Below, one piece after another: positions 3,013-63,432 of a DNA stretch of 64,000 nucleotides. The notes below the pieces were generated by a model. That model ran no database searches. It was not told where the DNA came from and saw only the letters and a list, made by a program, of their open reading frames with translations. Numbering within the stretch: the stretch's first letter is position 1; each line of letters starts with the position of its first letter. Origin of the DNA: Candidatus Thermoflexus japonica (GTDB lineage: Bacteria > Chloroflexota > Anaerolineae > Thermoflexales > Thermoflexaceae); contig BEHY01000005.1 of NCBI GenBank assembly GCA_002898735.1, forward strand, positions 4,772-68,771, in the 5' to 3' direction. Both the position numbers and the translations under genes were made by a program.

Positions 3013-3015
3013 GGG

Positions 3016-42194: not shown

Positions 42195-42518
42195 TTGTGG
42201 AACCTTCCATCTGGCCTTCCGGATCAGGAGCGCTTTGAGCGGACCGTTCAGCGGCTTCTCCAGGAGCGAGGAGAGGAGATCGAGTTCCTGGTTCTGTTCG
42301 GCTCCATCGCCCGGGGAGACTGTTCCTGGCGCAGCGATGATGATCTCCTCCTGGGCCTCCGGGAGGCGGATGGCCTGCGCCTGATCGATCGAATCCTGCA
42401 TTTCACGCCGCTGACCCCAGGAGGGAGAGTGAGTCCACAGCGCTACACGGGGGAACGGTTCAGCGCGATACGCGCCCATCGGGCGACCTGCGCCATCGCC
42501 TCCTCCAGGGAAGGCTGA
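42195..42518 (+). pseudogene. Degenerate minimal nucleotidyltransferase (MNT), likely a HEPN-MNT relic
   Basis: LVLFGSIARGD...SDDDLLL motif; last 76 nt overlap the iolO 3' end antisense; no intact HEPN partner. Confidence 0.55.
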
Positions 42519-43270
42519 GGCAGCACCTCTGCGGAGAGCCATCCCCCATACCCTGCCTCCCGGAGCGCCTTCAGGACAGACTCGAAATCCAGATGCCCCC
42601 ACCCGGGCGCCCACCGGTTGGAGTCCGCGATATGCACATGGAACAGCCGATCCCCCGCGCGCGCGATGGCCTTCTCCAGGGAGGCCTCCTCGATGTTGGC
42701 GTGGAAAGTGTCCAGCAGCACCCCCACATGGGATCGTCCCACCCGCTCGATGAGGGCCAGCGTTTCCTCGACCGTGTTCAGCAGGTCCGTTTCGTAGCGA
42801 TTGAGAGGCTCCAGCGCCAGCCGAACGGGATACGCAGCGGCCCGATCGGCCAGGTGCGCGATGGCCTCACCCAGCCACGCCAGCGCCCGGCCCCGGTCGA
42901 CGCCGGCCATAAGACGCCCGCGGATCAACCCGATGATCACCAGGCTCCCCCACTCCGCCGCCAGCTCCAGGTGGGCTTCCAGCCGGGCGAGGGCTGCCCG
43001 GCGCACCACAGCATCCGGATGGGTGAGGGACAACCCTTCCTCCACCCACGCCTGACCGGTGCCGATCGCTGGGATCCGCAGCGCATACCGCTCCAGAAGC
43101 GACCGCAGCCGGGGAACCGGAACCATCGCCGGATCCCGCACGGCCAGCTCCACACCGGCATAGCCCAACGCCCGTAGCCGCTCCAGGGTGCGTTCCAGAT
43201 CGTGAACGGCGGCAGCGGCTTCGAAGCGGGTGGGCTGCCAGGAAAGCACAAACGCCAGCGGCCATCCCAT
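42443..43270 (-). CDS. iolO: 5-keto-L-gluconate epimerase-like (xylose isomerase/AP endonuclease 2 fold)
   Basis: AIGTGQA..GLSLTHPD, EPLNRYETD, DTFHANIEE and ADSNRWAPG match Thermotoga IolO as recalled; context supports it. Confidence 0.8.
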   Translation of the reverse strand: MGWPLAFVLSWQPTRFEAAAAVHDLERTLERLRALGYAGVELAVRDPAMVPVPRLRSLLERYALRIPAIGTGQAWVEEGLSLTHPDAVVRRAALARLEAHLELAAEWGSLVIIGLIRGRLMAGVDRGRALAWLGEAIAHLADRAAAYPVRLALEPLNRYETDLLNTVEETLALIERVGRSHVGVLLDTFHANIEEASLEKAIARAGDRLFHVHIADSNRWAPGWGHLDFESVLKALREAGYGGWLSAEVLPQPSLEEAMAQVARWARIALNRSPV

Positions 43271-43274
43271 CCCT

Positions 43275-44096
43275 TCAAACCCCGGCGTAAGCGTTGAACC
43301 CCCCATCGATCGGCACCACCACCCCGGTGACAAAGGCGCTGGCCGGAGAGGCCAGCCAGATCACCGTGCCGATCAGATCCTCCGGGTCTCCGAACCGGCC
43401 CATCGGCGTATGTTCGAGGATCGCCCGGCCCCGCGGGGTCAGGTTCCCCTGCTCATCCAGGAGCAGATATCGATTCTGCCGGGTGAGGAAGAACCCCGGG
43501 GCGATCGCGTTCACACGGATCCTCGGCGAGTATTCCTGGGCCAGATGCACCGCCAGCCACTGGGTGAAATTGCTGACCGCCGCCTTGGCCGCGGCATAAC
43601 CCACCACACGGGTTAAGGGGCGGAAGGCCGCCATGGAGGAGACGTTGATGATGACCCCCTCGCCCGCCTCGACCATCTGTCGGGCGAAAACCTGGCTCGG
43701 GAGGATCGCCCCGCCGAAGAGGTTGAGGGCCACCACCTTCTCCAGGGCCTCCAGCGGCAGATCGAAGAATGAGCGCTCCGGCCCGACCGTGGCCTCCGGC
43801 ATATTCCCCCCCGCCAGGTTGATCAGGATGCTCACCGGCCCCACCTCCCGTCGGACCCGTTCCGCCACCGCTTCGATCTCCGCCCGGTTGAGCACATCCA
43901 TCCGGTAGCCACAAGCTTCCAGGCCCTCCATCTGCAATTCCGCCAGGCGACCCTCCAGGGGGCCGATGTCGGTGAGCACCAGACGGGCTCCCGCCCGACC
44001 CAGGCCTCGAGCGATCGCGCCCGCCAGAACCCCAGCGCCGCCCGTCAGCAACGCGACTTTCCCCTTCAGCGAGAACAGGGTTTCGAGGTAGCTCAT
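43275..44096 (-). CDS. uxuB: SDR family D-mannonate oxidoreductase (fructuronate reductase)
   Basis: TGGAGVL, AGGN, SFFD, YAAAK, GFFLTRQN and DGGFNAYAGV match the Bacillus UxuB/YjmF type as recalled. Confidence 0.75.
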   Translation of the reverse strand: MSYLETLFSLKGKVALLTGGAGVLAGAIARGLGRAGARLVLTDIGPLEGRLAELQMEGLEACGYRMDVLNRAEIEAVAERVRREVGPVSILINLAGGNMPEATVGPERSFFDLPLEALEKVVALNLFGGAILPSQVFARQMVEAGEGVIINVSSMAAFRPLTRVVGYAAAKAAVSNFTQWLAVHLAQEYSPRIRVNAIAPGFFLTRQNRYLLLDEQGNLTPRGRAILEHTPMGRFGDPEDLIGTVIWLASPASAFVTGVVVPIDGGFNAYAGV

Positions 44097-44259
44097 GGCA
44101 CCCCTCCTGAAAGCCTCGTCATCGGATAACAGCCCGCCCGCCATGGTCGGTAGATCGATCCGCCCCCTCTTCCCCGCTCGTGTGGGGAAGAGGAGGGGTC
44201 AGGGCGTTCGTTCCTCGGAAAAAGGGGCGGTCCCTTCCCGGCAGCCCCGAGAACCCCGC

Positions 44260-45678
44260 TCAATCCAGCCACTCCGTATGGAAAACACCAGGCCGATCGA
44301 TCCGCTCATAGGTGTGGGCTCCGAAGGCATCCCGCTGGGCCTGGATGAGGTTGGCCGGCAACCGGGAGCGGCGCATGGAGAGCACATAATCCACCGCCGT
44401 GCTCAGCGCAGGCATTGGGACCCCTGCCTCGAAGGCCCATCGCAAGACCCGTCCGGCCGCTGGCAGCCGCTGCTGGAGCTCAGCCCGGAATCGCGCGCTG
44501 AACAGCAGGTGCGGATCCTCCGGGTCCTCCCGAACGATCTCCCTCAGGAACCCCAGCCAGCGGGCGCGGATAATGCAACCGGCCCGCCAGACCCGCAGGA
44601 CCTCCGCCCGATCCGTTCCGTAGCTGTAGACCCGCGAAGCTTCGTGGAGCAACCAGAGCCCCTGAGAGAAAGCCGCCAGCAGCATCAGATTGAGCGCGGC
44701 CTCCAGGTCCGCCAGGACGCCCTCGGAAAAAGGCCCCAGACGCTGATCCGGCCACGGGAACCCGGCCCCAATTCGCTCCCGATCCGTCTTGAAGTAGGAA
44801 AGGGTGCGCGCGATCACCGCCACGGTGAGGGTGGGAGCGGGCACGCCCAGCTCCAGCGCGCTCTGGGCTGCCCACCGCCCCGTCCCCTTCTGCTCCGCGC
44901 GATCCATGATCCGCTCCACCAGCGGATCCCCGCTCTCCGGATCCCGGTATCGCAGGACGCGGGCGGCCAGCTCCGTGAGGAAGGCGTTCAACGCCCCCTC
45001 GTTCCAGCGCTCGAAGGTCTCCGCAATGGCTTCGACGGGCATCCCCAGGGCCGTCTTCATAAAGTCATAGGCCTCGGCGATGCCCTGCATGAAGGCGTAT
45101 TCGATGGCGTTATGCACCATCTTCACGTAGTGGCCGGCCCCACCCCGCCCCATATAGGCGCAGCATGGGCCCTCCTCACTCTGCGCCGCAATCCGGATGA
45201 ACATATGCTCGACCATGGCATAGGCTTCGGCGGACCCACCGGGCATGATGGAAGGGCCCAGCAGGGCCCCTTTCTCCCCCCCGCTGATCCCCACCCCCAG
45301 GAACCGGATCCCGTGGGCGGCCAGATTCTGCATGCGTCGCTCGGTATCCGCGTAATGGGAGTTTCCTCCATCCATCACCAGATCCCCCGGCTCCAGGAGG
45401 GGAAGCAACGCCTCGATCACCTGATCCACCGCCGACCCGGCCTGGACCATCAGCAGGATCCGGCGAGGGCGTTCCAGGCACCGCACGAATTCCTCCAGGG
45501 TGTAGGCGGGGATGATCGGCTCATCCCGCACGCGATCCCGCAGAAACCCCTCGGTCCGCTCCGGGGTCCGGTTGTAGACACACACCCGGAACCCGTGCCG
45601 GGCGAAATTCAGGGCCAGATTCTGGCCCATGACCGCCAGACCGATGATCCCGATCTCGCCACCGTTACGCATACGCAT
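44260..45678 (-). CDS. gnd: 6-phosphogluconate dehydrogenase, decarboxylating (long form)
   Basis: GLAVMG, VKMVHNAIEY, QKGTGRW and QAQRDAFGAHTY. Confidence 0.95.
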   Translation of the reverse strand: MRMRNGGEIGIIGLAVMGQNLALNFARHGFRVCVYNRTPERTEGFLRDRVRDEPIIPAYTLEEFVRCLERPRRILLMVQAGSAVDQVIEALLPLLEPGDLVMDGGNSHYADTERRMQNLAAHGIRFLGVGISGGEKGALLGPSIMPGGSAEAYAMVEHMFIRIAAQSEEGPCCAYMGRGGAGHYVKMVHNAIEYAFMQGIAEAYDFMKTALGMPVEAIAETFERWNEGALNAFLTELAARVLRYRDPESGDPLVERIMDRAEQKGTGRWAAQSALELGVPAPTLTVAVIARTLSYFKTDRERIGAGFPWPDQRLGPFSEGVLADLEAALNLMLLAAFSQGLWLLHEASRVYSYGTDRAEVLRVWRAGCIIRARWLGFLREIVREDPEDPHLLFSARFRAELQQRLPAAGRVLRWAFEAGVPMPALSTAVDYVLSMRRSRLPANLIQAQRDAFGAHTYERIDRPGVFHTEWLD

Positions 45679-47163
45679 TCACCCCCCAAAGATCTCCTGG
45701 TGACGGCGGAACGCCTCCTCCAGATCCCCCATCAGGGCCTGGAAGCGCTCGAACTGCCGCTCATAGATCGGAACCCAATCCGGCACCGGTTCGTAGATCC
45801 GCACAGGCACCTCCCGGACCGCTGACCATAGATCCGGGGCTGCGCCGATGGCGACCCGAGCCAGGGCGGCGCTTCCTGTTAGAGCCGGCTCCGCGATCTC
45901 CGGAACCTCAACCGGGGTCTGGAACACGGAGGCCAGGATGCGCATCCAGAGGGCTGAACGGGTTCCCCCGCCGCCTGCCCGAAGCCGCAATGGGGACAGA
46001 TCGTTGGCCCGCAGCGCCTCCAGGATCAACCGGAGGGCGAACGCCACCCCTTCCATGGCGGCCCGGGTGAGATGCCCCCGGTGGTGATGAGCGCGCAGGC
46101 CGAAGATCACCCCAGAGGCCAGATGGCTGATCCCCGGATAACGCTCGCCGGTCAAAAACGGAAGGAACAGAAGCCCGGTCGGCCCTCCGACGGCCTCGGC
46201 CAGGGCCTCCTGCTCCGCATACGCCAGACCCAGCACCGCCTCCTGCAACCACTGCAGGACGCTTCCCGCATTGTTGATGGCCCCGCCAGGGAACCAGCGA
46301 CCCCCGGCCAGATAATACGTCTGCAAGCGCATCTGCGGGAAGCGATCCAGGATCGGGCGATCGGCGACCCGGCGGATCATGGCCGTAGTCCCCAGGTTCA
46401 TCGCCCCGATGCCGGACGCGACGGCCCCCAATCCCAGGCCCACCGCTCCCCCATCATAGACCCCCGCGATCACCTCCACCTCCGGCCGGAGACCGAGGGC
46501 TTCGGCGGCTTCGGGGCGCAGGGAACCCATCCGGGTTTCCGGAAGGACCACCTCCGGCATGCGCTCCTCGGTGAGCTCCACGAGCGCCAGGATCTCCGGA
46601 TCCCAGCGCAGGGTATGCACGTTCATCAGCTGGGTCGCCGTGGCCAGGGAAGGCTCCGTCAGGAACCTTCCCAGAAGACGGAAGAGAATGTAATCCTTCG
46701 CCCCCACAAACCACCGGGCCCGGTGGAAGACATCGGGCCGGCGAACCCGGATCCATTCCAGCTTGGCCAGCGGATATTGAAAGAGGGGCGGACATCCTGT
46801 CCGCTGGTAGATCCTCCCGATATCCATGCGGGCCAGCAACCCCGGGAACGTCTCCTGGGGCCGGGTGTCGAGGAGGGTCATCAGCCCCATCAGGGGGCGA
46901 CCCGCCGCATCCACCGGCATGAGGCTGAGCTGATAGGCGGAAAGGACGATCCACCGGATCTCATCCGACGCCTCTCCGACCACCTCCCGCACGGCGGCCA
47001 CCAGCCGATCCCACAGGACCTCCGGATCATGCTCCGCCCGCCCGGTCTCATCCCGGGCCAGCGGAAGCGCCCGGATGGCCACCCCGTGGAGCTGTCCATC
47101 CCATCCGAAGCGACCGGCCTTCAGATGGGTCGTGCCGATATCCACGGCAAGGATTTGCGCCAT
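45679..47163 (-). CDS. gntK: FGGY family kinase, gluconokinase-like
   Basis: DIGTT, NLGTTAMIR, FLPFLTGER and GGGTRS; directly upstream of gnd. Confidence 0.75.
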   Translation of the reverse strand: MAQILAVDIGTTHLKAGRFGWDGQLHGVAIRALPLARDETGRAEHDPEVLWDRLVAAVREVVGEASDEIRWIVLSAYQLSLMPVDAAGRPLMGLMTLLDTRPQETFPGLLARMDIGRIYQRTGCPPLFQYPLAKLEWIRVRRPDVFHRARWFVGAKDYILFRLLGRFLTEPSLATATQLMNVHTLRWDPEILALVELTEERMPEVVLPETRMGSLRPEAAEALGLRPEVEVIAGVYDGGAVGLGLGAVASGIGAMNLGTTAMIRRVADRPILDRFPQMRLQTYYLAGGRWFPGGAINNAGSVLQWLQEAVLGLAYAEQEALAEAVGGPTGLLFLPFLTGERYPGISHLASGVIFGLRAHHHRGHLTRAAMEGVAFALRLILEALRANDLSPLRLRAGGGGTRSALWMRILASVFQTPVEVPEIAEPALTGSAALARVAIGAAPDLWSAVREVPVRIYEPVPDWVPIYERQFERFQALMGDLEEAFRRHQEIFGG

Positions 47164-47272: not shown

Positions 47273-48325
47273 TTACCGAGAGGGAGCTACCCCACCCCCG
47301 GAGCCCGCAGGCGATTGCCGGGCGAACGCCCGGGCACGCGAGAGGACTTCGGGGTTCACCACTTCCTCCGGGATCTCCCCCCGGAGCACCCGCTCCACAT
47401 CGGAGATCACCTTCTCCCCCATACGCCGCAGCGTCTCGTGGGTGTAAGCGGCGATGTGGGGGACGATCAGCACGTTCGGGAAACGGAGGAGAGGATGATC
47501 CGGGCCGATGGGCTCCCCTTCCACCACGTCCAGAGCGGCCCCGGCCACGCGTCCGGATTCCAGCGCGGCGATCAGCGCCGCCTCGTCGATGAGCTCCCCC
47601 CGCGCCGTGTTCACCAGGATCACGCCCGGCTTCATCTTCCTGAAGGCCTCGTGGGAAAGCATATGGAAGTTTTCCTCCGTGAGGGCCGCGTGCAGAGAGA
47701 GGATGTCCGCCTCCCGAAGCAGGGTCTCCAGATCCACGGGCTCCGCCCCGCTCTCCCGGATGGCTTCGGAGGGCACCCCCGGATCGAAGGCCAGGACCCG
47801 GGCATGGAAGCCGTGCGCCAGGATCTCCCCCACCCGGCTTCCGATGTTCCCGAAGCCGATCAGCCCCACGGTCTTGCCCCGGAGCTCCCATCCGACGAAG
47901 GCCGCCCGCTCGGCCCAGCGTCCCTCCCGCGCGGCAGCGGCGGCCTCGGGGATCCGGCGGAGGAGCGCGAGCAACAGGGCGATCGTGAGCTCCGCCACGG
48001 CGTCCCGCTCCATCCAGGGGGTGACGCGGGTCACCAGCACCCCGTGGGCGGTTGCGGAAGGGAGGTGAATGTTATCCACCCCGATGCCATGGCGGGCGAT
48101 CAGCCAAGTCTCATCCTTGTGGGCGAAGAACTCCGGGCCGAACCGCGGCGTGACGCTCACGACGAGGATCTGGAAGCCGTGGAGCGCTTCAGCCAGGGCC
48201 CGGCCATCCATCTGCGGGGGAACGTCGATTCGCCGGACCTCCCCCAGGGCAGCCAGGCGCTCCAGATGTTCCGGGAAGTAGCGGCCGAAGCTGCTGGAGT
48301 TGACGATGGCGATGCGCAGGCGCAT
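47273..48325 (-). CDS. D-isomer-specific 2-hydroxyacid dehydrogenase
   Basis: RHGIGVDN, GLIGFGNIG, NTARG, LDVVEGEP and PHIAAY; distinctive N-terminal VNSSSFG. Confidence 0.9.
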   Translation of the reverse strand: MRLRIAIVNSSSFGRYFPEHLERLAALGEVRRIDVPPQMDGRALAEALHGFQILVVSVTPRFGPEFFAHKDETWLIARHGIGVDNIHLPSATAHGVLVTRVTPWMERDAVAELTIALLLALLRRIPEAAAAAREGRWAERAAFVGWELRGKTVGLIGFGNIGSRVGEILAHGFHARVLAFDPGVPSEAIRESGAEPVDLETLLREADILSLHAALTEENFHMLSHEAFRKMKPGVILVNTARGELIDEAALIAALESGRVAGAALDVVEGEPIGPDHPLLRFPNVLIVPHIAAYTHETLRRMGEKVISDVERVLRGEIPEEVVNPEVLSRARAFARQSPAGSGGGVAPSR

Positions 48326-51251: not shown

Positions 51252-51252
51252 C

Positions 51253-52350: not shown

Positions 52351-52408
52351 TCCCCCTCTTCCAGGAACACTTGTATGTTTGGTGAGCGCTTTTCTGGCAA
52401 AGTTTAAC

Positions 52409-53242: not shown

Positions 53243-53243
53243 C

Positions 53244-55675: not shown

Positions 55676-55703
55676 GGCAACCTCCCTCTTTTTTGTGGGG
55701 GAT

Positions 55704-55878: not shown

Positions 55879-55942
55879 TGCCCCTCTTTAACTCGCAGTG
55901 AGACCAGCTGGATGGTTTCGTTAAAGAAGAACGAAAAAATTT

Positions 55943-58045: not shown

Positions 58046-59248
58046 TCAGGCGGTCGCGGCGGCCGCCGGCTCGGCTTCCGGCACCGCCCGCAGATCCGGC
58101 TTGATGGTGATCTTCGCGTCGATCCGCTGGCTCAGCCGCTCCACCGCCTCCACCGCCCGATCCAGGGGATAGCGGGCGGTGATGATGCGGGTCATATCGA
58201 TCAGCCCGGCGGCCATCATCCGGATCACGCTGGGGAAGATGGCATCGCCCGAATGGCCCTGGGAGCCGAAGATCTGCCCCCGCCGCACCTGCAGGACCTC
58301 CAAGTAGAGCGGCACCCGCTCGGCGGCCCGGCCGATCACCACGATCCGCCCGTTGATCGCCAGGGCCTTCTCCATCTCCGGCAGCGTCCGTGGGGGAGCC
58401 CCCGCCGCCTCCACCAGCACATCCGCCCCTTCCCCACGGGTCGCCTCCCGGATCGCCTCGCTGGGGGCCACCTCCCGGGGATCGAAGGCCGCATCCGCGC
58501 CCATCCGCAGCGCCATCTCCCGCCGCGAAGGGCTCACGTCGAAGGCCAGCACCTTCCCGGCGCCCGCCGCCCGGGAGAGGGCGATGGCCGCCAGGCCGAT
58601 GGGCCCTGCCCCGAAGACCGCCACATAGGCTCCGGGGCGGAACCCGCCCGCGCGGACAAAGAGCCCATTGTAGGCCACACTGGTCGGCTCCACCAGGGAA
58701 CCCGCTTCGTAAGCCCGGTCGACATCCCCGTAGCGCTCGGCGATGGCGTCGATCTTCCAGCAGTATTTGGCTTTGACGGCCACATACTCCGCCATGGCCC
58801 CCGGGACCGTGAAGCCCAGCTCCTCCAGGTTGGTGCAATGGTTGAAGAAGCCGCTGCGGCAGGGCGTGCAGACCCCACACCACAGCATCTCTTCGGAAGT
58901 CACCATATCCCCCGGCCGCAGATCCCGCACCTCCTTCCCCACCGCGACCACTTCCCCGGAGAACTCGTGGCCCGGGATCACGGGGAACTTCACCAGGCCG
59001 GGATACAGGATGTAGCCCTCCGCATCGGTCTCATAGAAATGCAGATCCGACCCGCATACCCCGCAGGCCTTCACCCGGATCACCACCTCATCCGGGCCCG
59101 GCGCGGGATCCGGGACCTCCTGGATCGAGAACCGGGGATGCCGCCAGATGCTGGACCCCGTGATCGCCTTGCCCGTCTCCCGCTCCCAATCCGAAAGCGG
59201 ATAATCCGGACGCGGATCCCACTTCGCCTCCACCACCACGGCTTTCAT
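58046..59248 (-). CDS. iolM: Zn-dependent scyllo-inosose 3-dehydrogenase-like
   Basis: Distinctive N-terminus AKWDPRP...WRHP and CGSDLHFYETDAEGYILYPGL, as recalled for Thermotoga IolM; GHEFSG. Confidence 0.82.
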   Translation of the reverse strand: MKAVVVEAKWDPRPDYPLSDWERETGKAITGSSIWRHPRFSIQEVPDPAPGPDEVVIRVKACGVCGSDLHFYETDAEGYILYPGLVKFPVIPGHEFSGEVVAVGKEVRDLRPGDMVTSEEMLWCGVCTPCRSGFFNHCTNLEELGFTVPGAMAEYVAVKAKYCWKIDAIAERYGDVDRAYEAGSLVEPTSVAYNGLFVRAGGFRPGAYVAVFGAGPIGLAAIALSRAAGAGKVLAFDVSPSRREMALRMGADAAFDPREVAPSEAIREATRGEGADVLVEAAGAPPRTLPEMEKALAINGRIVVIGRAAERVPLYLEVLQVRRGQIFGSQGHSGDAIFPSVIRMMAAGLIDMTRIITARYPLDRAVEAVERLSQRIDAKITIKPDLRAVPEAEPAAAATA

Positions 59249-60015
59249 GGCTTTCCCTCCTCCGGAAGGGTGATCCCGCCAGCAATGAGCTCCGCGACCA
59301 TCTCCGGCGAGACATCGGTTTTGCGGAAGTCCCCGATCTTGCGCCCGTGGCTTAAGATGACCAGACGATCCGCCACCGGATAGACGTGATAGATGTTATG
59401 GGTGATGAAGATCACCGAGAGGCCCCGCCGGCGGACTTCCTCCACATACCCCAGCACCTTGCGGGTCTCTTTGATCGAGAGCGCGGAAGTGGGCTCATCG
59501 AGGATCAGCAGGCGCACACCGAAGTGGAGGGCGCGGCCGATCGCGATCGATTGTCGCTCCCCACCCGACAGCACGGAGACGGGCTCCCATACCGAACGGA
59601 CCCGGATGCCGATCTCCTCCAGCACCTGACGAGTGACCTGCTCCATCTCCCGCATATCGAGGAATGAGAAAGGCCCGACCCGCCGCACCGGCTCCCGGCC
59701 CAGGAAGAAGTTCCGGGCGATGCTCATCATCTCCACCAGGGCCAGATCCTGGTAAACGGTCTCAATGCCCAGCGCTCGCGCCTCGCGGGGCGAGCGGAAG
59801 CGAACCGGACGGCCCTCGAAGTAGATCTCGCCGTCATCCGGCGGGTAGACCCCGGTCAGGACCTTGATCAGCGTGGATTTCCCGGCGCCGTTATCCCCCA
59901 GGAGGCCGACCACCTCCTGATAGCCCACGGCGAAATCCACCCCGGCCAGGGCCTCCACACCGTCGAACCGCTTGACGATCCCGCGCATCTCCACCAGCCA
60001 GCGCCCTTCGCTCAT
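59245..60015 (-). CDS. CUT2 ABC transporter ATPase (single NBD)
   Basis: GDNGAGKST, LSGGERQ and LILDEPT. Confidence 0.93.
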   Translation of the reverse strand: MSEGRWLVEMRGIVKRFDGVEALAGVDFAVGYQEVVGLLGDNGAGKSTLIKVLTGVYPPDDGEIYFEGRPVRFRSPREARALGIETVYQDLALVEMMSIARNFFLGREPVRRVGPFSFLDMREMEQVTRQVLEEIGIRVRSVWEPVSVLSGGERQSIAIGRALHFGVRLLILDEPTSALSIKETRKVLGYVEEVRRRGLSVIFITHNIYHVYPVADRLVILSHGRKIGDFRKTDVSPEMVAELIAGGITLPEEGKP

Positions 60016-60095: not shown

Positions 60096-61154
60096 TCACC
60101 CCGACCGTCGGATCCGCAGGTTGATGATCACCGCTCCGACCAGCACCAGCCCGATGAACGCGCGATACCAGTAGGCCGGCGCGCCGGCCAGCACCAGGCC
60201 GTTGCGGACCATCCCCACGATCAGCGCCCCGAGCACCGTGCCGATCACGCTCCCATAGCCCCCCGTGAGCAGGGTCCCGCCGGTCACCGTGGCCGCAATC
60301 GCTTCCAGTTCGACTCCTTCCCCTCGCAGGGGATCCACCGATCCGAAGCGGCTGAACTGGATGATGCCCGCCAGGGCGGCCAGGACCGCGGTGAGGATGA
60401 ACCCGATCTGCTTCACCCGCGCCACCTCCACCCCCAGGGCTCGGGCCGCCTGGGGGTTGCCCCCCGAAGCGAAGATCGCGTTCCCGAAGGGCGTGCGGGT
60501 GAGAACGAGGGTGGCGATCAGCGCAACCGTCAGGAACCAGAGGGCAGAGGCATGGAAACCACCGGGGAGCCGGCCGGAGAGAACGAACATAAGAAGGGAT
60601 TTCCCCTCATAGGCGATGGGAAACCCGCCGGTCACCGCCAGGAGCACCCCCCGCCAGAACATCATGGACCCCAGGGTAACGATGAATGAGGGGAGCCGCC
60701 CGCGGGTCACCACCCAGCCGTTCAGCGCCCCGATCGCCGCCGCCAGGGAGAGGGCCGCCAGGAACGCGAGGAGATGAGGGATCCCGGCCCGGGCCATCAG
60801 CGCGAACGCCATCGCCGAGACCCCCAGCACGGAGCCCACCGAGAGATCGAATTCCCCGGCGATCATCAGCAGCGTGACGCCAATCGCCACCAGCCCCAGC
60901 TCCGCGGCGATGGTCATGATCCCGGCCAGAGAGTCCAGGGTGAGGAAGTAGGGGGCCGCGATCGCAAAGCCGAGAAAGACAGCGAGGAAACCGGCCAGCG
61001 CCCCCACCTCCGGGTATCGCCGCAGCTCCGCCAGGGAAATCCCTCGTATCCGCCGGCGGGCCTGCGCCTGCACACGCGCCTCAACCGCTTGCGGATCCAT
61101 TGCGGACGCACTCAACCATGGGTTCATCGGGACCTGCGCCTGCTGGGCCCCCAT
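60096..61154 (-). CDS. CUT2 ABC permease (RbsC-like)
   Basis: GEFDLSVG, FIVTLG, GGNPQAARALG and ELEAIAATVTGG. Confidence 0.93.
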   Translation of the reverse strand: MGAQQAQVPMNPWLSASAMDPQAVEARVQAQARRRIRGISLAELRRYPEVGALAGFLAVFLGFAIAAPYFLTLDSLAGIMTIAAELGLVAIGVTLLMIAGEFDLSVGSVLGVSAMAFALMARAGIPHLLAFLAALSLAAAIGALNGWVVTRGRLPSFIVTLGSMMFWRGVLLAVTGGFPIAYEGKSLLMFVLSGRLPGGFHASALWFLTVALIATLVLTRTPFGNAIFASGGNPQAARALGVEVARVKQIGFILTAVLAALAGIIQFSRFGSVDPLRGEGVELEAIAATVTGGTLLTGGYGSVIGTVLGALIVGMVRNGLVLAGAPAYWYRAFIGLVLVGAVIINLRIRRSG

Positions 61155-61312: not shown

Positions 61313-61320
61313 CCCCAGGT

Positions 61321-62301
61321 TTAACGGATGCCCTGCTTGATCAGCTCCTCCACCTGGCTCACATTGTCCTTATCCACAAAGCCCGGCCCGGTCAGCACGT
61401 CGTTGGCCGGCCGCAACCCATATTTCTTGTAGAGATAGAGCCAGGTGATGGCCATGTAACCCTGCAGGTATTGCTGCTGATCGATGGCGAACAGCGTCAC
61501 CCCTTCCTTGATCGCCGACAGCGTCCCGGGGTGCAGATCGAACGTCCCATGGAGCACCTTGCCGACCAGGTTGTTCTCCTTCAGGAACTTCACCGCCGGG
61601 TCCGTGCCCAGGGGGCCGAGGGTGAGGAGGGCATCCGTATCCGGGTTGCGGGTGAAGTAAGCCTTGAGGGCCTCCACCGCCTTGGTGGGATCCGTGCCGA
61701 TGTCCAGCTTCTCCACCGGCACGTTCTTCTCCTTCATCCCATCCAGGAAGCCCTGACAGCGGGCCTCCAGGCCCACGTGGCCAACCTCGTGGATGGCGCA
61801 CACGGCCCGTTTGGGCGTGCGCACGGCGAGCATCCGCTGGGCCGCCCGGAGCCCGCCCAGATACTCATCCATGCCGATGTAGAACATATACGGGATGCGC
61901 TCTCCCTCCGGGCGCGGATCGGCGACGTTGATCGCCACCACCGGGATGCCCTGCTGGATCGCCCGACGCAGCGGCTCATCGAGGGCCTTGGGGTCTGTGA
62001 TGGTCACCGCCAGCCCGTCCGGCCTGGCGGCGATGGCGCTGTTGAGGAGGTTCACCAGCTCCTGGATGGAGAACTTCTCCGGCCCGAAGTATTTCGCTTC
62101 CACCGGATAAACCTTCGCGGCGTCGTTCATCCCTTTGATCACCACCCCCCAGAAGGGATCGGCAGGGCCGCCGTGGGAGACGATGTAAAACGTGAACTCC
62201 TTCTTCGGGGGAGCGGCGGCAGGCGTGGCCGGGGCGCACGCCCCCAGCAGCAAGCCCAGGACCAGGAGAATGGGAATCCACCGGCGGACGGTGCGAATCA
62301 T
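61321..62301 (-). CDS. CUT2 (periplasmic binding protein type 1) sugar or polyol-binding lipoprotein
   Basis: Lipobox LLGAC; SHGGPADPFW, GMDEYLGG and IDQQQYLQGY; ATGA overlap with the LacI gene. Confidence 0.9.
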   Translation of the reverse strand: MIRTVRRWIPILLVLGLLLGACAPATPAAAPPKKEFTFYIVSHGGPADPFWGVVIKGMNDAAKVYPVEAKYFGPEKFSIQELVNLLNSAIAARPDGLAVTITDPKALDEPLRRAIQQGIPVVAINVADPRPEGERIPYMFYIGMDEYLGGLRAAQRMLAVRTPKRAVCAIHEVGHVGLEARCQGFLDGMKEKNVPVEKLDIGTDPTKAVEALKAYFTRNPDTDALLTLGPLGTDPAVKFLKENNLVGKVLHGTFDLHPGTLSAIKEGVTLFAIDQQQYLQGYMAITWLYLYKKYGLRPANDVLTGPGFVDKDNVSQVEELIKQGIR

Positions 62302-63368
62302 GGCAACCTCCTTTCAGCCAGAAGGTGGGGAACTACCGGGATGGAGCCTTCCGGGGGTGGGCCGCATGAGGCCCGCTCCACCAGACGGCAGGGCAGCTGC
62401 AGCTGAGGAGAGACCCGCTCCCCCTGCAGCAGGCGGAGCAGCATGCTCATAGCGGTCCGCCCCATCTCATACTTGGGCTGGGCGATCGTCGTGAGAGGGG
62501 GTTCCGTGTAGGCGGCGAAGAGGATATCATCAAAGCCGATAATCGAAAGGTCCTCCGGAACCCGCAGCCCCGCGACTCGGGCAGCCCGAAGGGCCCCGAT
62601 CGCCGTCATATCGTTGTAGCAGAACACGGCCGTCGGCCGGACCGGGGCCTCCAGCAGGCGTTGAATGCCCCACTCCCCGGCCTCCGGCCGGCCGTTTCCT
62701 TCCACAACCCATGCGGGATCCGGCGGGATGCCTGCGGCCGTGAGAGCCTCCTGATAACCCGCCCGCCGCAACCGATCTGAGCGGGCCATGGGGGGGCCGC
62801 TGATGTAAGCGATGCGGGTGTGGCCCAGGCGCATCAGATACGAAACCGCCAGCACCGCCCCCTGATAGCTGTCCGAGGCGACGGAATAAATGAGCGGCGC
62901 CTCCCGCTGCTGATTAATGAGCACAATGGGGACCCCGAGGGCTTCCAGATAGGGGAGGTAGAGCTCGCCGACGCGAGAGGAGGCCACGATCACGCCCTCC
63001 ACCCGGCTCTCCGCCAGGGCCCGCACCGCGGCCAGCTCCCGCTCCGGATCGGCGTTGGAGGTGGCCAGGAACAGGCGATAGCCCGCCTCCAGGGCCACTT
63101 CCTCCACGCCGCGGACGATCTCCGCCAGAAAGGGATCCGCCAGGGTGGTGATGACCAGGCCGATGATGGATGTGCGGGTGGTGACCAGGCTCCGCGCGGC
63201 CGCGTTGGGCACATAGCCCATCCGCGCCGCCAGCCGACGGATCCGCTCGGCCGTGCGGGGATTGACCAGGGGGCTCCCCCGCAACGCCCGCGAGACCGTG
63301 GAGTGGGAGACGCCAGCCCTTCGCGCGATATCCTTGATCGAAACCCGCCGGGAAGCGCGTCGGCCCAT
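62298..63368 (-). CDS. LacI family transcriptional regulator
   Basis: SIKDIARRAGVSHSTVSRAL HTH, YVPN hinge, FCYND and GFDD. Confidence 0.95.
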   Translation of the reverse strand: MGRRASRRVSIKDIARRAGVSHSTVSRALRGSPLVNPRTAERIRRLAARMGYVPNAAARSLVTTRTSIIGLVITTLADPFLAEIVRGVEEVALEAGYRLFLATSNADPERELAAVRALAESRVEGVIVASSRVGELYLPYLEALGVPIVLINQQREAPLIYSVASDSYQGAVLAVSYLMRLGHTRIAYISGPPMARSDRLRRAGYQEALTAAGIPPDPAWVVEGNGRPEAGEWGIQRLLEAPVRPTAVFCYNDMTAIGALRAARVAGLRVPEDLSIIGFDDILFAAYTEPPLTTIAQPKYEMGRTAMSMLLRLLQGERVSPQLQLPCRLVERASCGPPPEGSIPVVPHLLAERRLP

Positions 63369-63377
63369 CGGAGGAAT

Positions 63378-63393
63378 TTGCACACGTGTGCAA
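63378..63393. promoter_or_regulatory. LacI-type operator (perfect 16-bp palindrome)
   Basis: TTGCACACGTGTGCAA with central CG, immediately downstream of the -10 element. Confidence 0.75.
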
Positions 63394-63403
63394 TTTGGTT
63401 CCT

Positions 63404-63432
63404 ATGATATTCGATGAGATCGATTTTGTCAA
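63404..63432 (-). promoter_or_regulatory. Consensus sigma70 promoter driving the LacI gene and the catabolic island
   Basis: Minus strand TTGACA (63432-63427), 17 nt, TATCAT (63409-63404). Confidence 0.8.

What the first reader, a model, noticed from the sequence alone, without database searches (positions are those of the whole stretch)
42443..63432. A 21-kb island for inositol and inositol-phosphodiester scavenging, a rewired Thermotoga-type pathway in a Chloroflexota-like host
Seen: a consensus promoter and operator, then about 18 same-strand genes in the order lacI, CUT2 ABC, iolM, Zn-DH, iolN, CUT1 ABC, X-GDPD, uxaE, 2-hydroxyacid DH, gntK, gnd, uxuB, iolO. Many have abutting or overlapping stops and starts. 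Established: in T. maritima, IolG-IolM-IolN-IolO convert myo-inositol to D-tagaturonate, UxaE gives fructuronate, and the InoEFGK importer prefers inositol phosphate. Inference: here the upper inositol route, the hexuronate step and entry into the pentose phosphate pathway form one unit with a phosphodiesterase. That suggests use of glycerophospho-inositol or di-myo-inositol phosphate, which are thermophile compatible solutes or lipid head groups. None of the Bacillus iolBCDE genes are present.
Basis: partly seen in the sequence, partly recalled or inferred. Interest (0 to 1): 0.85.

Follow-up and report, generated by a model that had tools for sequence, protein, structure and literature searches.

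The report
Inositol-catabolism operon with acquired phosphodiester cassette
A hot-spring Thermoflexus (Chloroflexota) carries one repressor-controlled 18-gene operon predicted to turn inositol into pentose phosphate by the Thermotoga-type route; most of it is recognisable by standard annotation, but two steps use unexpected enzymes and a 6-kb transporter-plus-phosphodiesterase cassette was inserted recently.

Summary
Eighteen co-directional, mostly abutting genes lie on the minus strand (63368-42443) behind a near-consensus promoter and a perfect 16-bp palindrome.

IolM, IolN, IolO and Gnd pass NCBIfam equivalog cut-offs, and UxaE passes Pfam. The CUT1 transporter is 41-55% identical to Thermotoga InoEFGK. 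The host is Thermoflexus.

The interpretation needs three corrections.
- It is not a 21-kb island. The core operon has host-like GC and sits at the same locus in all Thermoflexus genomes examined. Only the 6.1-kb InoEFGK-like plus X-GDPD block (49851-55942, GC 57-62%) is a lineage-specific insertion.
- No IolG homologue is in the window. An IolM paralogue (ZnDH2) is the candidate substitute.
- T. maritima's Ni-dependent mannonate 2-epimerase GntE is absent. A D-2-hydroxyacid dehydrogenase, conserved next to the FGGY kinase in Dictyoglomus, Pseudothermotoga thermarum and Thermoanaerobacter, sits in its place.

The inositol-phosphodiester idea gains comparative support. X-GDPD follows InoEFGK-like genes in at least 17 unrelated loci. 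It recurs beside iol genes, and the same operator motif precedes both kinds of unit. Its N-domain has an NLP-like fold. The substrate remains unproven.

Verdict: a new variant of a known pathway, of moderate interest.

The parts
63404..63432 (-). Sigma-70-type promoter TTGACA-17 nt-TATCAT
   Evidence: Matches 11 of 12 positions and is the best match in 20 kb. The same architecture occurs in L001, L003, L006, L009 and L010.
63378..63393 (.). LacI-type operator, perfect 16-bp palindrome TTGCACACGTGTGCAA (22-bp imperfect palindrome 63375-63396), immediately downstream of the -10 box
   Evidence: It is unique in the window (0.03 expected). It is conserved with a symmetric change in L001. Similar sites precede inoE-like or lacI-iol genes in L094, L114, L121 and L137.
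62298..63368 (-). LacI-family repressor. The likely start is ATG 63368 (356 aa, the length in T. hugenholtzii); the ORF caller's GTG at 63383 lies inside the operator.
   Evidence: Pfam LacI plus Peripla_BP_3; sequence; L172 gene length.
61321..62301 (-). CUT2 substrate-binding lipoprotein (lipobox LLGAC); likely importer component for free cyclitol
   Evidence: Peripla_BP_4. Best NCBIfam hit is the rhizopine-catabolism SBP, 264 bits, below the 420 cut-off. It is 56-64% identical to SBPs next to iolM/iolN in Thermotogota and related loci.
60096..61154 (-). CUT2 permease
   Evidence: BPD_transp_2.
59245..60015 (-). CUT2 ATPase, single cassette, probably 256 aa (ORF runs to 60099)
   Evidence: ABC_tran; 256 aa in L001 and L172.
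58046..59248 (-). IolM, scyllo-inosose 3-dehydrogenase
   Evidence: NF041097 584 bits against a cut-off of 450; 49-51% identical to Thermotoga sp. SG1 IolM.
57004..58029 (-). ZnDH2, a Zn-dependent polyol-type dehydrogenase and distant IolM paralogue; candidate first-step inositol dehydrogenase
   Evidence: NF041097 219 bits, below cut-off. About 30% identical to IolM. Nearest solved structures are polyol, threonine and alcohol dehydrogenases. It is found beside iolM/iolN in 13 non-Thermoflexus loci, never together with a Thermotoga-type IolG.
55943..56917 (-). IolN, 3-dehydro-scyllo-inosose hydrolase (324 aa)
   Evidence: NF041098 543 bits against a cut-off of 245; 71% identical to Thermotoga IolN.
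55705..55877 (.). 173-bp MITE-like structured repeat in the iolN-inoE spacer, at the left edge of the insertion
   Evidence: 23-bp terminal inverted repeats match at 20 of 23 positions. Spacer fold -114.7 kcal/mol, z = -7.1. Metagenome word depth is about 480-508 against 15-19 on the flanks. It is absent from the same spacer in L083 and L084.
54230..55675 (-). InoE-like CUT1 substrate-binding lipoprotein (lipobox LALVAC; 481 aa)
   Evidence: SBP_bac_1; 41% identical over about 430 aa to Thermotoga sp. SG1 InoE, E about 1e-110 to 1e-117; 481 aa in L083.
53244..54233 (-). InoF-like permease
   Evidence: BPD_transp_1; 51-53% identical to Thermotoga InoF.
52409..53242 (-). InoG-like permease
   Evidence: BPD_transp_1; 44-45% identical to Thermotoga InoG.
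51253..52350 (-). InoK-like ATPase
   Evidence: ABC_tran plus TOBE_2; 55% identical to Thermotoga InoK; nearest NCBIfam is the UgpC subfamily, 404 bits against a cut-off of 432.
49851..51251 (-). X-GDPD, a cytoplasmic two-domain phosphodiesterase: NLP-like domain X (aa 1-230) plus GDPD (aa 238-456)
   Evidence: GDPD 100 bits. AlphaFold pLDDT 93. GDPD fold TM 0.84 to 2pz0. For domain X the top 12 Foldseek hits are all NLP proteins, and Pfam NPP1 is the only, sub-threshold, hit.
49851..55942 (-). 6.1-kb lineage-specific insertion (inoEFGK-like plus X-GDPD) between the iolN stop and the uxaE start
   Evidence: Absent from L001, L003, L006, L007, L009, L010, L172 and L173. Present in L083-L085, L089 and L090. 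GC is 0.57-0.62 against 0.66-0.70 on the flanks, and GC3 is 0.71-0.76 against 0.82-0.88. An independent contig crosses the GDPD/uxaE junction.
48375..49850 (-). UxaE, tagaturonate/fructuronate epimerase
   Evidence: PF16257 384 bits.
47273..48325 (-). D-isomer-specific 2-hydroxyacid dehydrogenase; candidate for the C2 inversion needed between mannonate and gluconate (free or 6-phosphorylated)
   Evidence: Pfam. No NCBIfam equivalog is reached. Nearest solved structures are phosphoglycerate dehydrogenase and glyoxylate reductase. The 2HADH-FGGY pair is conserved in L169, L170 and L171. LarA sits in this place in Pseudothermotoga.
45679..47163 (-). FGGY kinase, gluconate-kinase-like (gluconate or mannonate kinase)
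   Evidence: FGGY_N and FGGY_C. gntK_FGGY 268 bits, below the 649 cut-off. Best solved structure is gluconate kinase 3gbt, 214 bits, against 151 for the next hit.
44260..45678 (-). Gnd, decarboxylating 6-phosphogluconate dehydrogenase
   Evidence: NF006765 596 bits against a cut-off of 413; TIGR00873 582 against 427.
43275..44096 (-). SDR of the D-mannonate oxidoreductase (fructuronate reductase) subfamily (ORF runs to 44144)
   Evidence: NF006132 351 bits against a cut-off of 281; 66-71% identical to the SDR next to uxaE and iol genes in Pseudothermotoga.
42443..43270 (-). IolO, 5-keto-L-gluconate epimerase (about 275 aa; ORF runs to 43333)
   Evidence: NF041099 324 bits against a cut-off of 300. 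TM0416 (2zvr) scores 230 bits against 102 for the next structure.

Best explanation
This is a LacI-repressed catabolic operon of a Thermoflexus species. It imports a cyclitol, most likely myo- or scyllo-inositol, and converts it to ribulose 5-phosphate.

Proposed flow:
1. The CUT2 ABC system brings in free inositol.
2. A dehydrogenase makes scyllo-inosose. The canonical IolG is absent, so the best candidate is ZnDH2, the IolM paralogue encoded between iolM and iolN.
3. IolM oxidises scyllo-inosose to 3-dehydro-scyllo-inosose.
4. IolN opens the ring to 5-keto-L-gluconate.
5. IolO epimerises that to D-tagaturonate.
6. UxaE gives D-fructuronate.
7. The SDR reduces it to D-mannonate.
8. The conserved pair of D-2-hydroxyacid dehydrogenase and FGGY kinase converts mannonate to 6-phosphogluconate. 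This needs inversion at C2, which T. maritima does with the Ni-pincer enzyme GntE.
9. Gnd yields ribulose 5-phosphate and CO2.

In this lineage a 6.1-kb cassette was inserted precisely between iolN and uxaE. It encodes an InoEFGK-like importer and a cytoplasmic phosphodiesterase whose GDPD domain is fused to an NLP-like domain. The cassette most likely adds a second entry: uptake of an inositol-containing phosphodiester and its hydrolysis inside the cell. Glycerophosphoinositol is the simplest candidate; DIP or a glycosylated relative is possible.

Shown here: family membership of IolM, IolN, IolO, UxaE and Gnd; the similarity to InoEFGK; the promoter and operator and their conservation; the insertion polymorphism; the conserved gene modules.
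Inferred: all substrates, the roles of ZnDH2, the 2-hydroxyacid dehydrogenase and X-GDPD, and co-transcription.
For: - Equivalog-level hits for IolM, IolN, IolO and Gnd, and a strong Pfam hit for UxaE. IolO is nearest to TM0416.
- Identity to the Thermotoga sp. SG1 TM0411-TM0422-type locus is 41-71%. The pathway chemistry is as described in PMC5931981, PMC12632266 and PMC3750489.
- The core operon, promoter and operator are conserved across Thermoflexus.
- ZnDH2 lies beside iolM/iolN in 13 loci from other phyla. Ten of these have no Gfo/Idh/MocA gene within 10 kb. None of the four loci with a Thermotoga-type IolG (50% identity or more) has ZnDH2.
- uxaE-2HADH-FGGY-gnd-SDR occurs in the same order as a free-standing operon in Dictyoglomus. 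The 2HADH-FGGY pair also occurs in Pseudothermotoga thermarum and Thermoanaerobacter.
- In Pseudothermotoga the orthologous SDR (about 68% identical) and UxaE are followed by a LarA-type gene. GntE is a proven mannonate 2-epimerase (PMC7583248).
- Cassette: it is absent from 8 Thermoflexus loci and present in 5 independent contigs, and it has low GC.
- X-GDPD directly follows InoEFGK-like genes in 17 other loci. It lies beside IolG/IolM/IolN/IolO or TM0415-like PfkB genes in L092, L094, L095, L102, L114, L121, L144 and L146.
- The same operator motif precedes inoE-like genes (L094, L114) and lacI-iol genes (L121, L137).
- Domain X has an NLP-like fold. NLPs bind glycosyl-inositol-phosphoceramide head groups (PMC6743777, PMC12513423).
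- Domain X is also fused to HAD phosphatases, to GDPD plus HAD, and to an AP_endonuc_2 barrel.
- Thomas et al. note the InoEFGK module (KEGG M00599) in only some Thermoflexus MAGs (PMC8129789).
Against: - There are no expression or biochemical data. No RNA runs hold this sequence.
- No IolG homologue is in the window. One may be encoded elsewhere, and the rest of the genome could not be searched.
- A single stereospecific D-2-hydroxyacid dehydrogenase cannot by itself invert C2. I know of no epimerase in that family.
- The FGGY kinase does not reach the gluconokinase equivalog cut-off.
- About half of the X-GDPD loci with enough flank have neither the transporter nor iol genes nearby.
- The NLP similarity is weak: TM 0.35-0.41, and Pfam 12 bits against a cut-off of 21.
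- The cassette has no operator of its own. A strongly folded repeat lies between iolN and inoE and could interrupt transcription.
Confidence: 0.7

Rival explanations
1. The inserted cassette is a general Ugp-like system for scavenging glycerophosphodiesters for phosphate or glycerol. It landed in the iol operon by chance, and its substrate does not contain inositol.
For: The gene order SBP-permease-permease-ATPase-GDPD is the same as E. coli ugpBAECQ (own knowledge). The ATPase is nearest the UgpC subfamily, 404 bits against a cut-off of 432. Many X-GDPD loci show no iol genes nearby. The cassette is absent from most Thermoflexus genomes and has foreign GC. One relative lies near diol/glycerol dehydratase genes (L088).
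Against: The SBP and permeases are closest to Thermotoga InoEFG, and the SBP gave no UgpB hit. X-GDPD is linked independently to IolG, IolM, IolN, IolO and TM0415-like kinases. A shared operator motif occurs in four unrelated loci. The insertion is exact, between two iol-pathway genes, and preserves abutting stop and start.
Confidence: 0.22
2. ZnDH2 does not replace IolG. A canonical Gfo/Idh/MocA inositol dehydrogenase is encoded elsewhere. ZnDH2 feeds a second substrate into the route, for example scyllo-inositol, or L-gluconate/L-galactonate oxidised to 5-keto-L-gluconate/D-tagaturonate.
For: ZnDH2 resembles polyol and sugar-acid dehydrogenases: RspB, L-idonate 5-dehydrogenase and sorbitol dehydrogenase. 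Dehydrogenases acting on L-gluconate or L-galactonate give exactly these intermediates (PMC12632266). Three loci have both ZnDH2 and a weak Gfo/Idh/MocA gene. Only 64 kb of the genome was visible.
Against: ZnDH2 sits between iolM and iolN in many phyla and is absent wherever a Thermotoga-type IolG is present. No transporter for sugar acids is present in the operon.
Confidence: 0.35
3. The 2-hydroxyacid dehydrogenase has nothing to do with C2 inversion. It is an ordinary 2-ketogluconate, glyoxylate or hydroxypyruvate reductase. Mannonate is epimerised by a LarA-type GntE, or dehydrated by UxuA, encoded elsewhere.
For: The nearest characterised relatives are phosphoglycerate dehydrogenase, glyoxylate reductase and a probable 2-ketogluconate reductase. 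I know of no epimerase in this family. The stereochemistry requires a second, L-specific oxidation.
Against: The gene is tightly paired with the FGGY kinase (overlapping starts and stops), with Gnd, UxaE and the SDR alongside, in three other phyla. It occupies the slot that LarA/GntE holds in Thermotogota (PMC3750489). Dictyoglomus has only these five genes in its operon.
Confidence: 0.3

Closest known systems
Thermotoga maritima inositol regulon TM0411-TM0422 (IolR, IolM, IolN, IolG, TM0415, IolO, InoEFGK; Rodionova et al. 2013, cited in PMC3750489 and PMC5931981)
   Same: IolM, IolN and IolO are orthologues (49-71% identical and above the equivalog cut-offs). An InoEFGK-like importer is present (41-55% identical). 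The ring is cleaved oxidatively and hydrolytically to 5-keto-L-gluconate and then D-tagaturonate.
   Different: There is no IolG, no PPi-dependent kinase TM0415, no TM0422, and no ROK-type IolR; the regulator here is LacI-type. There is an extra CUT2 importer and an IolM paralogue. InoEFGK is a recent insertion and comes with a phosphodiesterase.
T. maritima UxaR-controlled gnd-uxaE-uxaD-gntE-gntK genes (TM0438-TM0443; PMC3750489, PMC7583248)
   Same: UxaE, a fructuronate reductase, an FGGY gluconate-type kinase and Gnd link tagaturonate to the pentose phosphate pathway.
   Different: The LarA-type, Ni-pincer GntE is replaced by a D-2-hydroxyacid dehydrogenase. The SDR belongs to the PRK08277 mannonate-oxidoreductase subfamily and is not close to TM0441 (1vl8 is not among hits at E below 1e-35). 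The genes are fused to the iol genes in one operon.
Dictyoglomus thermophilum uxaE-2HADH-FGGY-gnd-SDR operon (uncharacterised; locus L170)
   Same: The same five genes occur in the same order. The 2-hydroxyacid dehydrogenase is 58% identical.
   Different: It stands alone, without iol genes or a LacI gene in the 9-kb flanks.
[quoted passage not shown]
   Same: The same chemical problem is solved without free-gluconate epimerisation, and the route ends in 6-phosphogluconate dehydrogenase.
   Different: The genes for those two activities were not identified there. Whether the 2HADH-FGGY pair encodes them is a hypothesis and was not tested.
E. coli ugpBAECQ glycerophosphodiester uptake and hydrolysis operon (own knowledge)
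   Same: Same order: SBP, two permeases, ATPase, cytoplasmic GDPD.
   Different: The SBP and permeases are InoEFG-like rather than UgpBAE-like. The GDPD carries an extra 230-aa NLP-like domain. The cassette is embedded in an inositol operon.
NLP/NPP1 cytolysins of oomycetes, fungi and bacteria (PDB 3gnu, 3st1, 5nnw; PMC6743777)
   Same: Domain X gives NLPs as its only significant fold matches. It has a conserved acidic/His motif (WDxDIGHxYELEHVW) at the position where Pfam aligns it to NPP1. By eye this resembles GHRHDWE.
   Different: Domain X is cytoplasmic and fused to enzymes. It is below the Pfam threshold. No toxin role is implied.

Membership tests
IolM, scyllo-inosose 3-dehydrogenase (NCBIfam NF041097) | Score at or above the curated equivalog cut-off (450 bits) over the full length | tested here: met
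   584 bits, residues 1-383 of 400. The paralogue ZnDH2 scores only 219 bits and so is not a member.
IolN, 3-dehydro-scyllo-inosose hydrolase (NF041098) | Score at or above the cut-off (245 bits) | tested here: met
   543 bits; 71% identical to the Thermotoga protein.
IolO, 5-keto-L-gluconate epimerase (NF041099) | Score at or above the cut-off (300 bits); closest solved structure is TM0416 | tested here: met
   324 bits. 2zvr (TM0416) scores 230 bits against 102 for the next structure. The margin above the cut-off is small.
T. maritima-type inositol pathway | IolG, a Gfo/Idh/MocA myo-inositol 2-dehydrogenase, encoded with the other genes | tested here: not met
   tblastn with Thermotoga sp. 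SG1 IolG finds nothing in the 64-kb window at E up to 1e-3. No GFO_IDH_MocA domain appears in any ORF scanned.
T. maritima-type inositol pathway | Enzymatic conversion of myo-inositol to D-tagaturonate | not testable with these tools
   Needs in vitro reconstitution.
UxaE tagaturonate epimerase (PF16257) | Pfam gathering score | tested here: met
   384 bits against 27.1.
GntE, LarA-type mannonate/gluconate 2-epimerase | A Lar_N/LarA homologue encoded with uxaE and gntK | tested here: not met
   No Lar_N hit in any window ORF scanned. It is present in Pseudothermotoga L065.
GntK, FGGY-type gluconokinase (TIGR01314) | Equivalog cut-off of 648.55 bits | tested here: inconclusive
   268 bits, tied with XylB. 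The best solved relative is a gluconate kinase, 214 bits against 151 for the next hit.
Gnd, decarboxylating 6-phosphogluconate dehydrogenase | Equivalog cut-offs of NF006765 and TIGR00873 | tested here: met
   596 bits against 413, and 582 against 427.
InoEFGK inositol(-phosphate) ABC importer (KEGG M00599) | Sequence relationship of all four subunits to the Thermotoga system | tested here: met
   41, 51-53, 44-45 and 55% identity, full length, E from 1e-56 to 1e-117. Thomas et al. list the module for some Thermoflexus MAGs (PMC8129789).
InoEFGK inositol(-phosphate) ABC importer | Ligand specificity of the binding protein | not testable with these tools
   Needs binding assays.
GDPD glycerophosphodiester phosphodiesterase (PF03009) | Pfam gathering score, TIM-barrel fold, conserved HRG motif and acidic/His catalytic residues | tested here: met
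   100 bits against 23.6. Foldseek gives TM 0.84 to 2pz0. H238, R239, G240, E265, D267 and H280 are invariant in 40 homologues.
NLP/NPP1 (PF05630) | Pfam gathering score (21 bits); NLP fold | tested here: inconclusive
   Pfam 12.1 bits, E = 0.21, the only hit. Five of 40 homologues hit at E up to 1, best 0.034. The top 12 Foldseek PDB hits are all NLPs, best E = 2e-4, but TM is only 0.35-0.41. phmmer against PDB found nothing.
Genomic island (recently acquired block) | Deviant composition and variable presence among close relatives | tested here: not met
   The whole 21 kb has host-like GC and is conserved in all Thermoflexus loci. The criterion is met only for 49851-55942.
Bacillus-type iolBCDE pathway | IolB, IolC, IolD and IolE homologues | tested here: not met
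   None appeared among the window ORFs scanned. IolE (TIGR04379) appears only as a weak 50-bit hit on IolO.

The most novel reading that the evidence does not exclude
Two new enzyme functions may be hidden in this otherwise familiar operon.

(1) The D-2-hydroxyacid dehydrogenase that always travels with the FGGY kinase may be an NAD(P)-dependent enzyme that inverts C2. It would turn mannonate (or 6-phosphomannonate) into gluconate (or 6-phosphogluconate). It would be a cofactor-cheap replacement for the Ni-pincer epimerase GntE, and could be the unidentified gene behind the 6-phosphomannonate 2-epimerase activity of L. suebicus.

(2) Domain X may be a bacterial, cytoplasmic relative of the NLP toxin fold. 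It would serve as a recognition module for inositol-phosphate head groups on phosphodiesterases and phosphatases, defining a pathway for recycling inositol phosphodiesters such as glycerophosphoinositol or DIP.
Probability: 0.3. Interest if true: 0.75.

Novelty: new variant of a known kind. Interest (0 to 1): 0.55.

Why it matters
[quoted passage not shown] That paper's main text mentions inositol only once, for the transporter module. A complete, repressor-controlled inositol-to-pentose-phosphate operon, also present in T. hugenholtzii assemblies, gives a concrete substrate to test.
- The operon offers candidate genes for two steps where the Thermotoga enzymes are missing: the first dehydrogenase and the C2 inversion. 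The second bears on an activity whose genes were still unknown in 2020 (PMC6978723).
- The cassette is a clean natural example of operon growth by exact insertion of a transporter-plus-hydrolase module.
- The cassette's phosphodiesterase carries a little-known domain (257 cluster representatives among 1.84 billion) with a possible link to the NLP fold.

Tried and rejected
- tblastn with Thermotoga IolG, TM0415 (PfkB), IolR (ROK) and TM0422 found no homologue in the window.
- The exact-sequence look-up of the window's IolN found no record.
- The whole-cluster 'island' reading was rejected on composition and conservation.
- The tartronate-semialdehyde-reductase-like gene at 41086-41976 was considered as a 19th gene. 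It was rejected because a convergent ORF lies between it and iolO, and it is not adjacent in T. hugenholtzii.
- Foldseek with the whole X-GDPD model returned only GDPD hits, so the N-domain was modelled separately. phmmer of the N-domain against PDB found nothing.
- Rfam found nothing above the gathering score anywhere in the window. On the structured spacer it gave only a chance-level RsmW hit.
- The spacer repeat was not found in any fetched locus.
- No RNA-seq run holds the sequence, so co-transcription could not be tested.
- The context of an X-GDPD-HAD fusion (P0207) was uninformative.
- The Rodionova 2012 UxaE paper (PMC4505799) is not held. The claim that InoE prefers inositol phosphate could be traced only to the KEGG module name quoted in PMC8129789.
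- The script machine was lost. The fine DNA mapping of the insertion ends against L003 and L006 was not done, and neither was a shuffle control for operator matches across loci. A hand estimate gives about 0.5 chance matches in about 1.9 Mb, against 11 seen.

Full report
**What is there.** The window has about 66% GC. Between 63432 and 42443, eighteen genes lie on the minus strand.

Pfam and NCBIfam give the following, in order:
- A LacI-family regulator.
- A CUT2 ABC system: binding protein, permease and single-cassette ATPase.
- IolM: NF041097, 584 bits against a cut-off of 450.
- A second Zn-dependent dehydrogenase, here called ZnDH2. It scores only 219 bits on the IolM model.
- IolN: NF041098, 543 bits against 245.
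- A CUT1 ABC system: binding protein, two permeases and an ATPase.
- A 466-aa protein whose C-terminal half is a GDPD phosphodiesterase.
- UxaE: PF16257, 384 bits.
- A D-isomer-specific 2-hydroxyacid dehydrogenase (2HADH).
- An FGGY kinase.
- Gnd: 596 bits against 413.
- An SDR of the D-mannonate oxidoreductase subfamily: 351 bits against 281.
- IolO: NF041099, 324 bits against 300. Its best solved relative is TM0416, at 230 bits against 102 for the next structure.

Many stops and starts overlap or abut.

**Promoter, operator and ends.** On the minus strand, TTGACA-17 nt-TATCAT lies at 63432-63404. It matches 11 of 12 positions and is the only match of that quality in 20 kb. Seven bases downstream lies TTGCACACGTGTGCAA (63378-63393), a perfect 16-bp palindrome. 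It is unique in the window, with 0.03 matches expected even at three mismatches.

The ORF caller's GTG start for lacI lies inside the palindrome. The ATG at 63368 gives a 356-aa protein, the length called in T. hugenholtzii.

The same promoter-operator arrangement is present in five other Thermoflexus loci. In L001 both ends of the palindrome have changed symmetrically (CTGCACACGTGTGCAG), which argues for selection on the palindrome.

Downstream of iolO there is a convergent ORF with a nucleotidyltransferase motif (42195-42518, plus strand). The rest of the window is housekeeping: PNPase, S15, rpoB, gatCA, hisG, serS, tilS.

**Host and conservation.** IolN is 65-92% identical across Chloroflexota, Bacillota, Armatimonadota, Thermotogota, Dictyoglomota and others. 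NCBI already names many of these proteins 3-dehydro-scyllo-inosose hydrolase.

The closest genomes are Thermoflexus MAGs. Candidatus Thermoflexus tengchongensis QQ.bin.20 (L003) has proteins 85-99% identical to the window's.

The core gene order is lacI, CUT2 ABC, iolM, ZnDH2, iolN, uxaE, 2HADH, FGGY, gnd, SDR, iolO. It is found in L001, L003, L006, L007, L009 and L010, and in two assemblies named Thermoflexus hugenholtzii (L172, L173). In L001, L172 and L173 the same FAD-oxidase gene lies upstream, and L003 shows it by DNA match. Its GC matches the genome. The 21 kb is therefore a resident operon of the genus, not an island.

**The inserted cassette.** In all eight of those loci iolN is followed directly by uxaE. 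In the window, 6,092 bp (49851-55942) lie between them, carrying the CUT1 transporter and the GDPD gene.
- GC drops to 0.57-0.62, against 0.66-0.70 on both sides.
- GC3 of the four transporter genes is 0.71-0.76, against 0.82-0.88 for most neighbouring genes.
- The CUT2 permease has normal GC, so membrane-protein composition is not the cause.
- The right junction is exact: the GDPD stop TGA is followed at once by the uxaE ATG.
- The same arrangement, at about 90-96% protein identity, occurs in five independently assembled hot-spring contigs (L083-L085, L089, L090).
- An independent Logan contig from another run crosses the GDPD/uxaE junction. The arrangement is therefore not an assembly artefact.

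Thomas et al. reported that the KEGG inositol-phosphate transport module is present only in Ca. T. japonica HR22 and in Ca. T. tengchongensis GXS_4 and QQ28 (PMC8129789). This fits the polymorphism.

**Comparison with Thermotoga.** I fetched the TM0411-TM0422-type locus of Thermotoga sp. SG1. Its gene order is ROK regulator, IolM, IolN, IolG, PfkB, IolO, FTR1, InoEFGK, TM0422.

Identities of the window proteins to it:

| Protein | Identity |
|---|---|
| IolM | 49-51% |
| IolN | 71% |
| IolO | 45% |
| InoE | 41% over about 430 residues |
| InoF | 51-53% |
| InoG | 44-45% |
| InoK | 55% |

The chemistry of this route is stated in PMC5931981, and for IolO in PMC12632266. [quoted passage not shown]

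IolG, the TM0415-type PPi kinase, the ROK regulator and TM0422 have no homologue anywhere in the window.

**The first step.** ZnDH2 is about 30% identical to IolM. It resembles polyol-type medium-chain dehydrogenases: alcohol and threonine dehydrogenases, RspB, sorbitol dehydrogenase and L-idonate dehydrogenase.

I examined 80 IolN-centred loci from species-representative genomes.
- A ZnDH2 orthologue (50-58% identical) lies with iolM/iolN in 13 non-Thermoflexus loci: Anaerolineae, Caldilineae, Bacillota, Actinomycetota and unclassified.
- Ten of these have no Gfo/Idh/MocA gene within 10 kb. Three have only a weak one (26-27% identical).
- The four loci with a Thermotoga-type IolG (50% identity or more) have no ZnDH2.

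This complementary pattern makes ZnDH2 the best candidate for the inositol dehydrogenase. It is an inference. A canonical IolG elsewhere in the genome cannot be excluded. Nor can a role on scyllo-inositol or on L-gluconate/L-galactonate, which give the same downstream intermediates (PMC12632266).

[quoted passage not shown] GntE is a LarA homologue with demonstrated mannonate 2-epimerase activity (PMC7583248).

All intermediates from inositol or galacturonate have the L configuration at C2 of the aldonate, whereas D-gluconate has the D configuration. This is my own stereochemical derivation. An inversion at C2 is therefore unavoidable.

The window has no LarA homologue. In its place is the 2HADH, which reaches no NCBIfam equivalog. 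It is nearest to phosphoglycerate dehydrogenase and glyoxylate reductase, with a probable 2-ketogluconate reductase among the lower-ranked structures.

Its orthologues (58-67% identical) occur in Armatimonadota, Dictyoglomus, Pseudothermotoga thermarum and Thermoanaerobacter.
- In a contig carrying the protein annotated as Dictyoglomus thermophilum's, the operon is uxaE, 2HADH, FGGY, gnd, SDR, exactly as here and with nothing else.
- In P. thermarum the genes are 2HADH and FGGY, overlapping.
- In Thermoanaerobacter the genes are 2HADH, FGGY (split there into two fragments) and gnd.
- In a Pseudothermotoga locus the iol genes lie back to back with DeoR, uxaE, SDR and a LarA-type gene. That SDR is about 68% identical to the window's.

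The same slot is therefore filled by LarA in one lineage and by 2HADH plus kinase in others.

[quoted passage not shown] The 2HADH-FGGY pair is a reasonable candidate for such a route.

The weak point is mechanistic. A stereospecific D-2-hydroxyacid dehydrogenase alone should not oxidise an L-configured C2.

The FGGY kinase is nearest a solved gluconate kinase, at 214 bits against 151 for the next hit. It stays below the gluconokinase equivalog cut-off.

**The phosphodiesterase and its context.** The protein has no signal peptide, judged by eye.
- Its GDPD half scores 100 bits in Pfam.
- It keeps the HRG motif and the acidic and His residues invariant in 40 homologues.
- It superposes on solved GDPDs, with TM 0.84 to 2pz0.

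The two-domain architecture is common in Chloroflexota.

In 80 metagenomic loci found with this family, an InoEFGK-like transporter lies directly upstream in 17 non-Thermoflexus loci; its SBP is 37-63% identical to the window's. Eight shorter contigs show at least the ATPase there. Roughly fourteen loci with enough flank have no such transporter.

Links to inositol genes recur independently.
- L102 has an IolG-like gene (55% identical) upstream of the transporter.
- L121 has X-GDPD, TM0415-like PfkB, LacI, IolM (65%), IolN and IolO.
- L146 has IolG, IolM, IolN and IolO 4 kb upstream of X-GDPD.
- TM0415-like kinases flank X-GDPD in L092, L094, L095, L114 and L144.
- Palindromes within two mismatches of the window's operator lie upstream of the inoE-like gene in L094 and L114. 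They lie behind a TTGACA-17-TATAAT promoter in front of lacI-iolM in L121, and just after X-GDPD in L137.
- By hand, about 0.5 such matches are expected in the roughly 1.9 Mb of loci. Eleven were seen. The shuffle control could not be run.

Together these observations suggest one regulon covering iol genes and the transporter-phosphodiesterase unit in several Chloroflexota. That supports an inositol-containing diester as the substrate.

The alternative is a general Ugp-like glycerophosphodiester system. It has the same gene order as ugpBAECQ, and the ATPase is nearest UgpC. I consider it less likely but not excluded.

**Domain X.** The N-terminal 230 residues have no Pfam family. They are strongly conserved, with a WDxDIGHxYELEHVW motif and further invariant His, Lys, Glu and Asp residues.
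- A separate AlphaFold model has pLDDT 92.5.
- Against PDB, its first twelve hits are all Nep1-like proteins: 3st1, 5nnw, 5no9, 6qbd, 3gnu, 3gnz and 6qbe. The best E-value is 2e-4, TM is only 0.35-0.41, and everything else has E above 0.3.
- Pfam's only hit at E up to 10 is NPP1 (12 bits, E = 0.21), aligned over the conserved motif.
- Five of 40 homologues give the same weak hit.

NLPs bind the head group of glycosyl-inositol-phosphoceramides (PMC6743777, PMC12513423). The resemblance is a lead, not a demonstrated membership.

An exhaustive search found only 257 cluster representatives of domain X among 1.84 billion. It occurs:
- alone, as proteins of about 225 aa;
- before GDPD;
- after HAD phosphatases;
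- in X-GDPD-HAD triple fusions;
- after an AP_endonuc_2 barrel, the superfamily of IolO and IolE;
- at the end of a large glycosidase-like protein with a weak GH38 C-terminal-domain hit.

Partners that remove phosphodiester and phosphomonoester groups, and an inositol-type barrel, fit a role in processing phosphorylated cyclitol or glycosyl compounds.

**Verdict.** The novelty is smaller than claimed for the upper pathway: it is known since 2013 and recognised by standard models, and its linkage to uxaE already exists in Thermotogota.

The points of real interest are three:
- the candidate replacement of IolG by ZnDH2;
- the candidate replacement of Ni-dependent GntE by the 2HADH-kinase pair;
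- the recently inserted importer-phosphodiesterase cassette with its NLP-like domain.

All functional statements beyond family membership are inferences. No transcript data were available.

Noticed in passing
window 55705-55877: A 173-bp MITE-like element lies in the iolN-inoE spacer. It has 23-bp terminal inverted repeats (20 of 23 match) enclosing four GC-rich hairpins. The spacer folds at -114.7 kcal/mol (z = -7.1). In one hot-spring metagenome its core has word depth about 480-508, against 15-19 on the flanks, and contigs break there, so it is a high-copy repeat. It is absent from the same spacer in L083 and L084, and it matches no Rfam family.
   Followed up: partly
window 48375-49850 (uxaE) versus L001-L010 and L083: UxaE is far more diverged between Thermoflexus genomes (61-86% protein identity) than its neighbours (mostly 86-99%). 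The cassette-bearing relative L083 has the most different allele (61%). This suggests recombination or allele replacement at the insertion site.
   Followed up: no
window 41086-41976: A gene for a 2-hydroxy-3-oxopropionate (tartronate semialdehyde) reductase lies on the same strand 466 bp after iolO (TIGR01505, 392 bits against a cut-off of 341). Homologues (43-64% identical) also lie within 10 kb of iolN in several Armatimonadota and unclassified loci (L032, L034, L040, L056, L070). In T. hugenholtzii it is not next to iolO.
   Followed up: partly
window 42195-42518 (+): A small convergent ORF with a nucleotidyltransferase motif (LFGSIARGD) overlaps the 3' end of iolO. A similar NTP_transf_2 gene plus a small partner follows iolO in T. 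hugenholtzii (L172). It is possibly a toxin-antitoxin-type pair.
   Followed up: no
L065 (Pseudothermotoga sp.) 847-19975: The iol locus here contains a second ABC importer (SBP_bac_6/8-type binding protein, fused permease, ATPase) followed by a Cof-type HAD phosphatase, lying between the CUT2 system and iolO. On the divergent arm a PFK-family kinase and a HAD gene follow the LarA gene. This may be another way of using phosphorylated inositols.
   Followed up: no
L170 (contig carrying the 2HADH protein annotated as Dictyoglomus thermophilum's) 15305-17527: An MFS transporter and a 322-aa GDPD lie two genes downstream of the uxaE-2HADH-FGGY-gnd-SDR operon. This is a second, independent proximity of a phosphodiesterase to this module.
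   Followed up: no
L172/L173 (T. hugenholtzii) 9617-9886: An 89-aa DUF2442 gene lies between uxaE and the 2HADH in T. hugenholtzii but not in the window. This is another small insertion in the same operon.
   Followed up: no
L086/L087 and L088: In other Chloroflexota the transporter/X-GDPD unit lies near bacterial-microcompartment genes (BMC shell, aldehyde dehydrogenase, DeoC) or near B12-dependent diol/glycerol dehydratase subunits. This may reflect use of the glycerol half of a glycerophosphodiester.
   Followed up: no
window 63584-64000 and 2-1210: Two FAD-linked oxidase (GlcD-like) genes lie at the two ends of the window. The one upstream of lacI is conserved in that position in L001, L172 and L173, and by DNA match in L003.
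   Followed up: no
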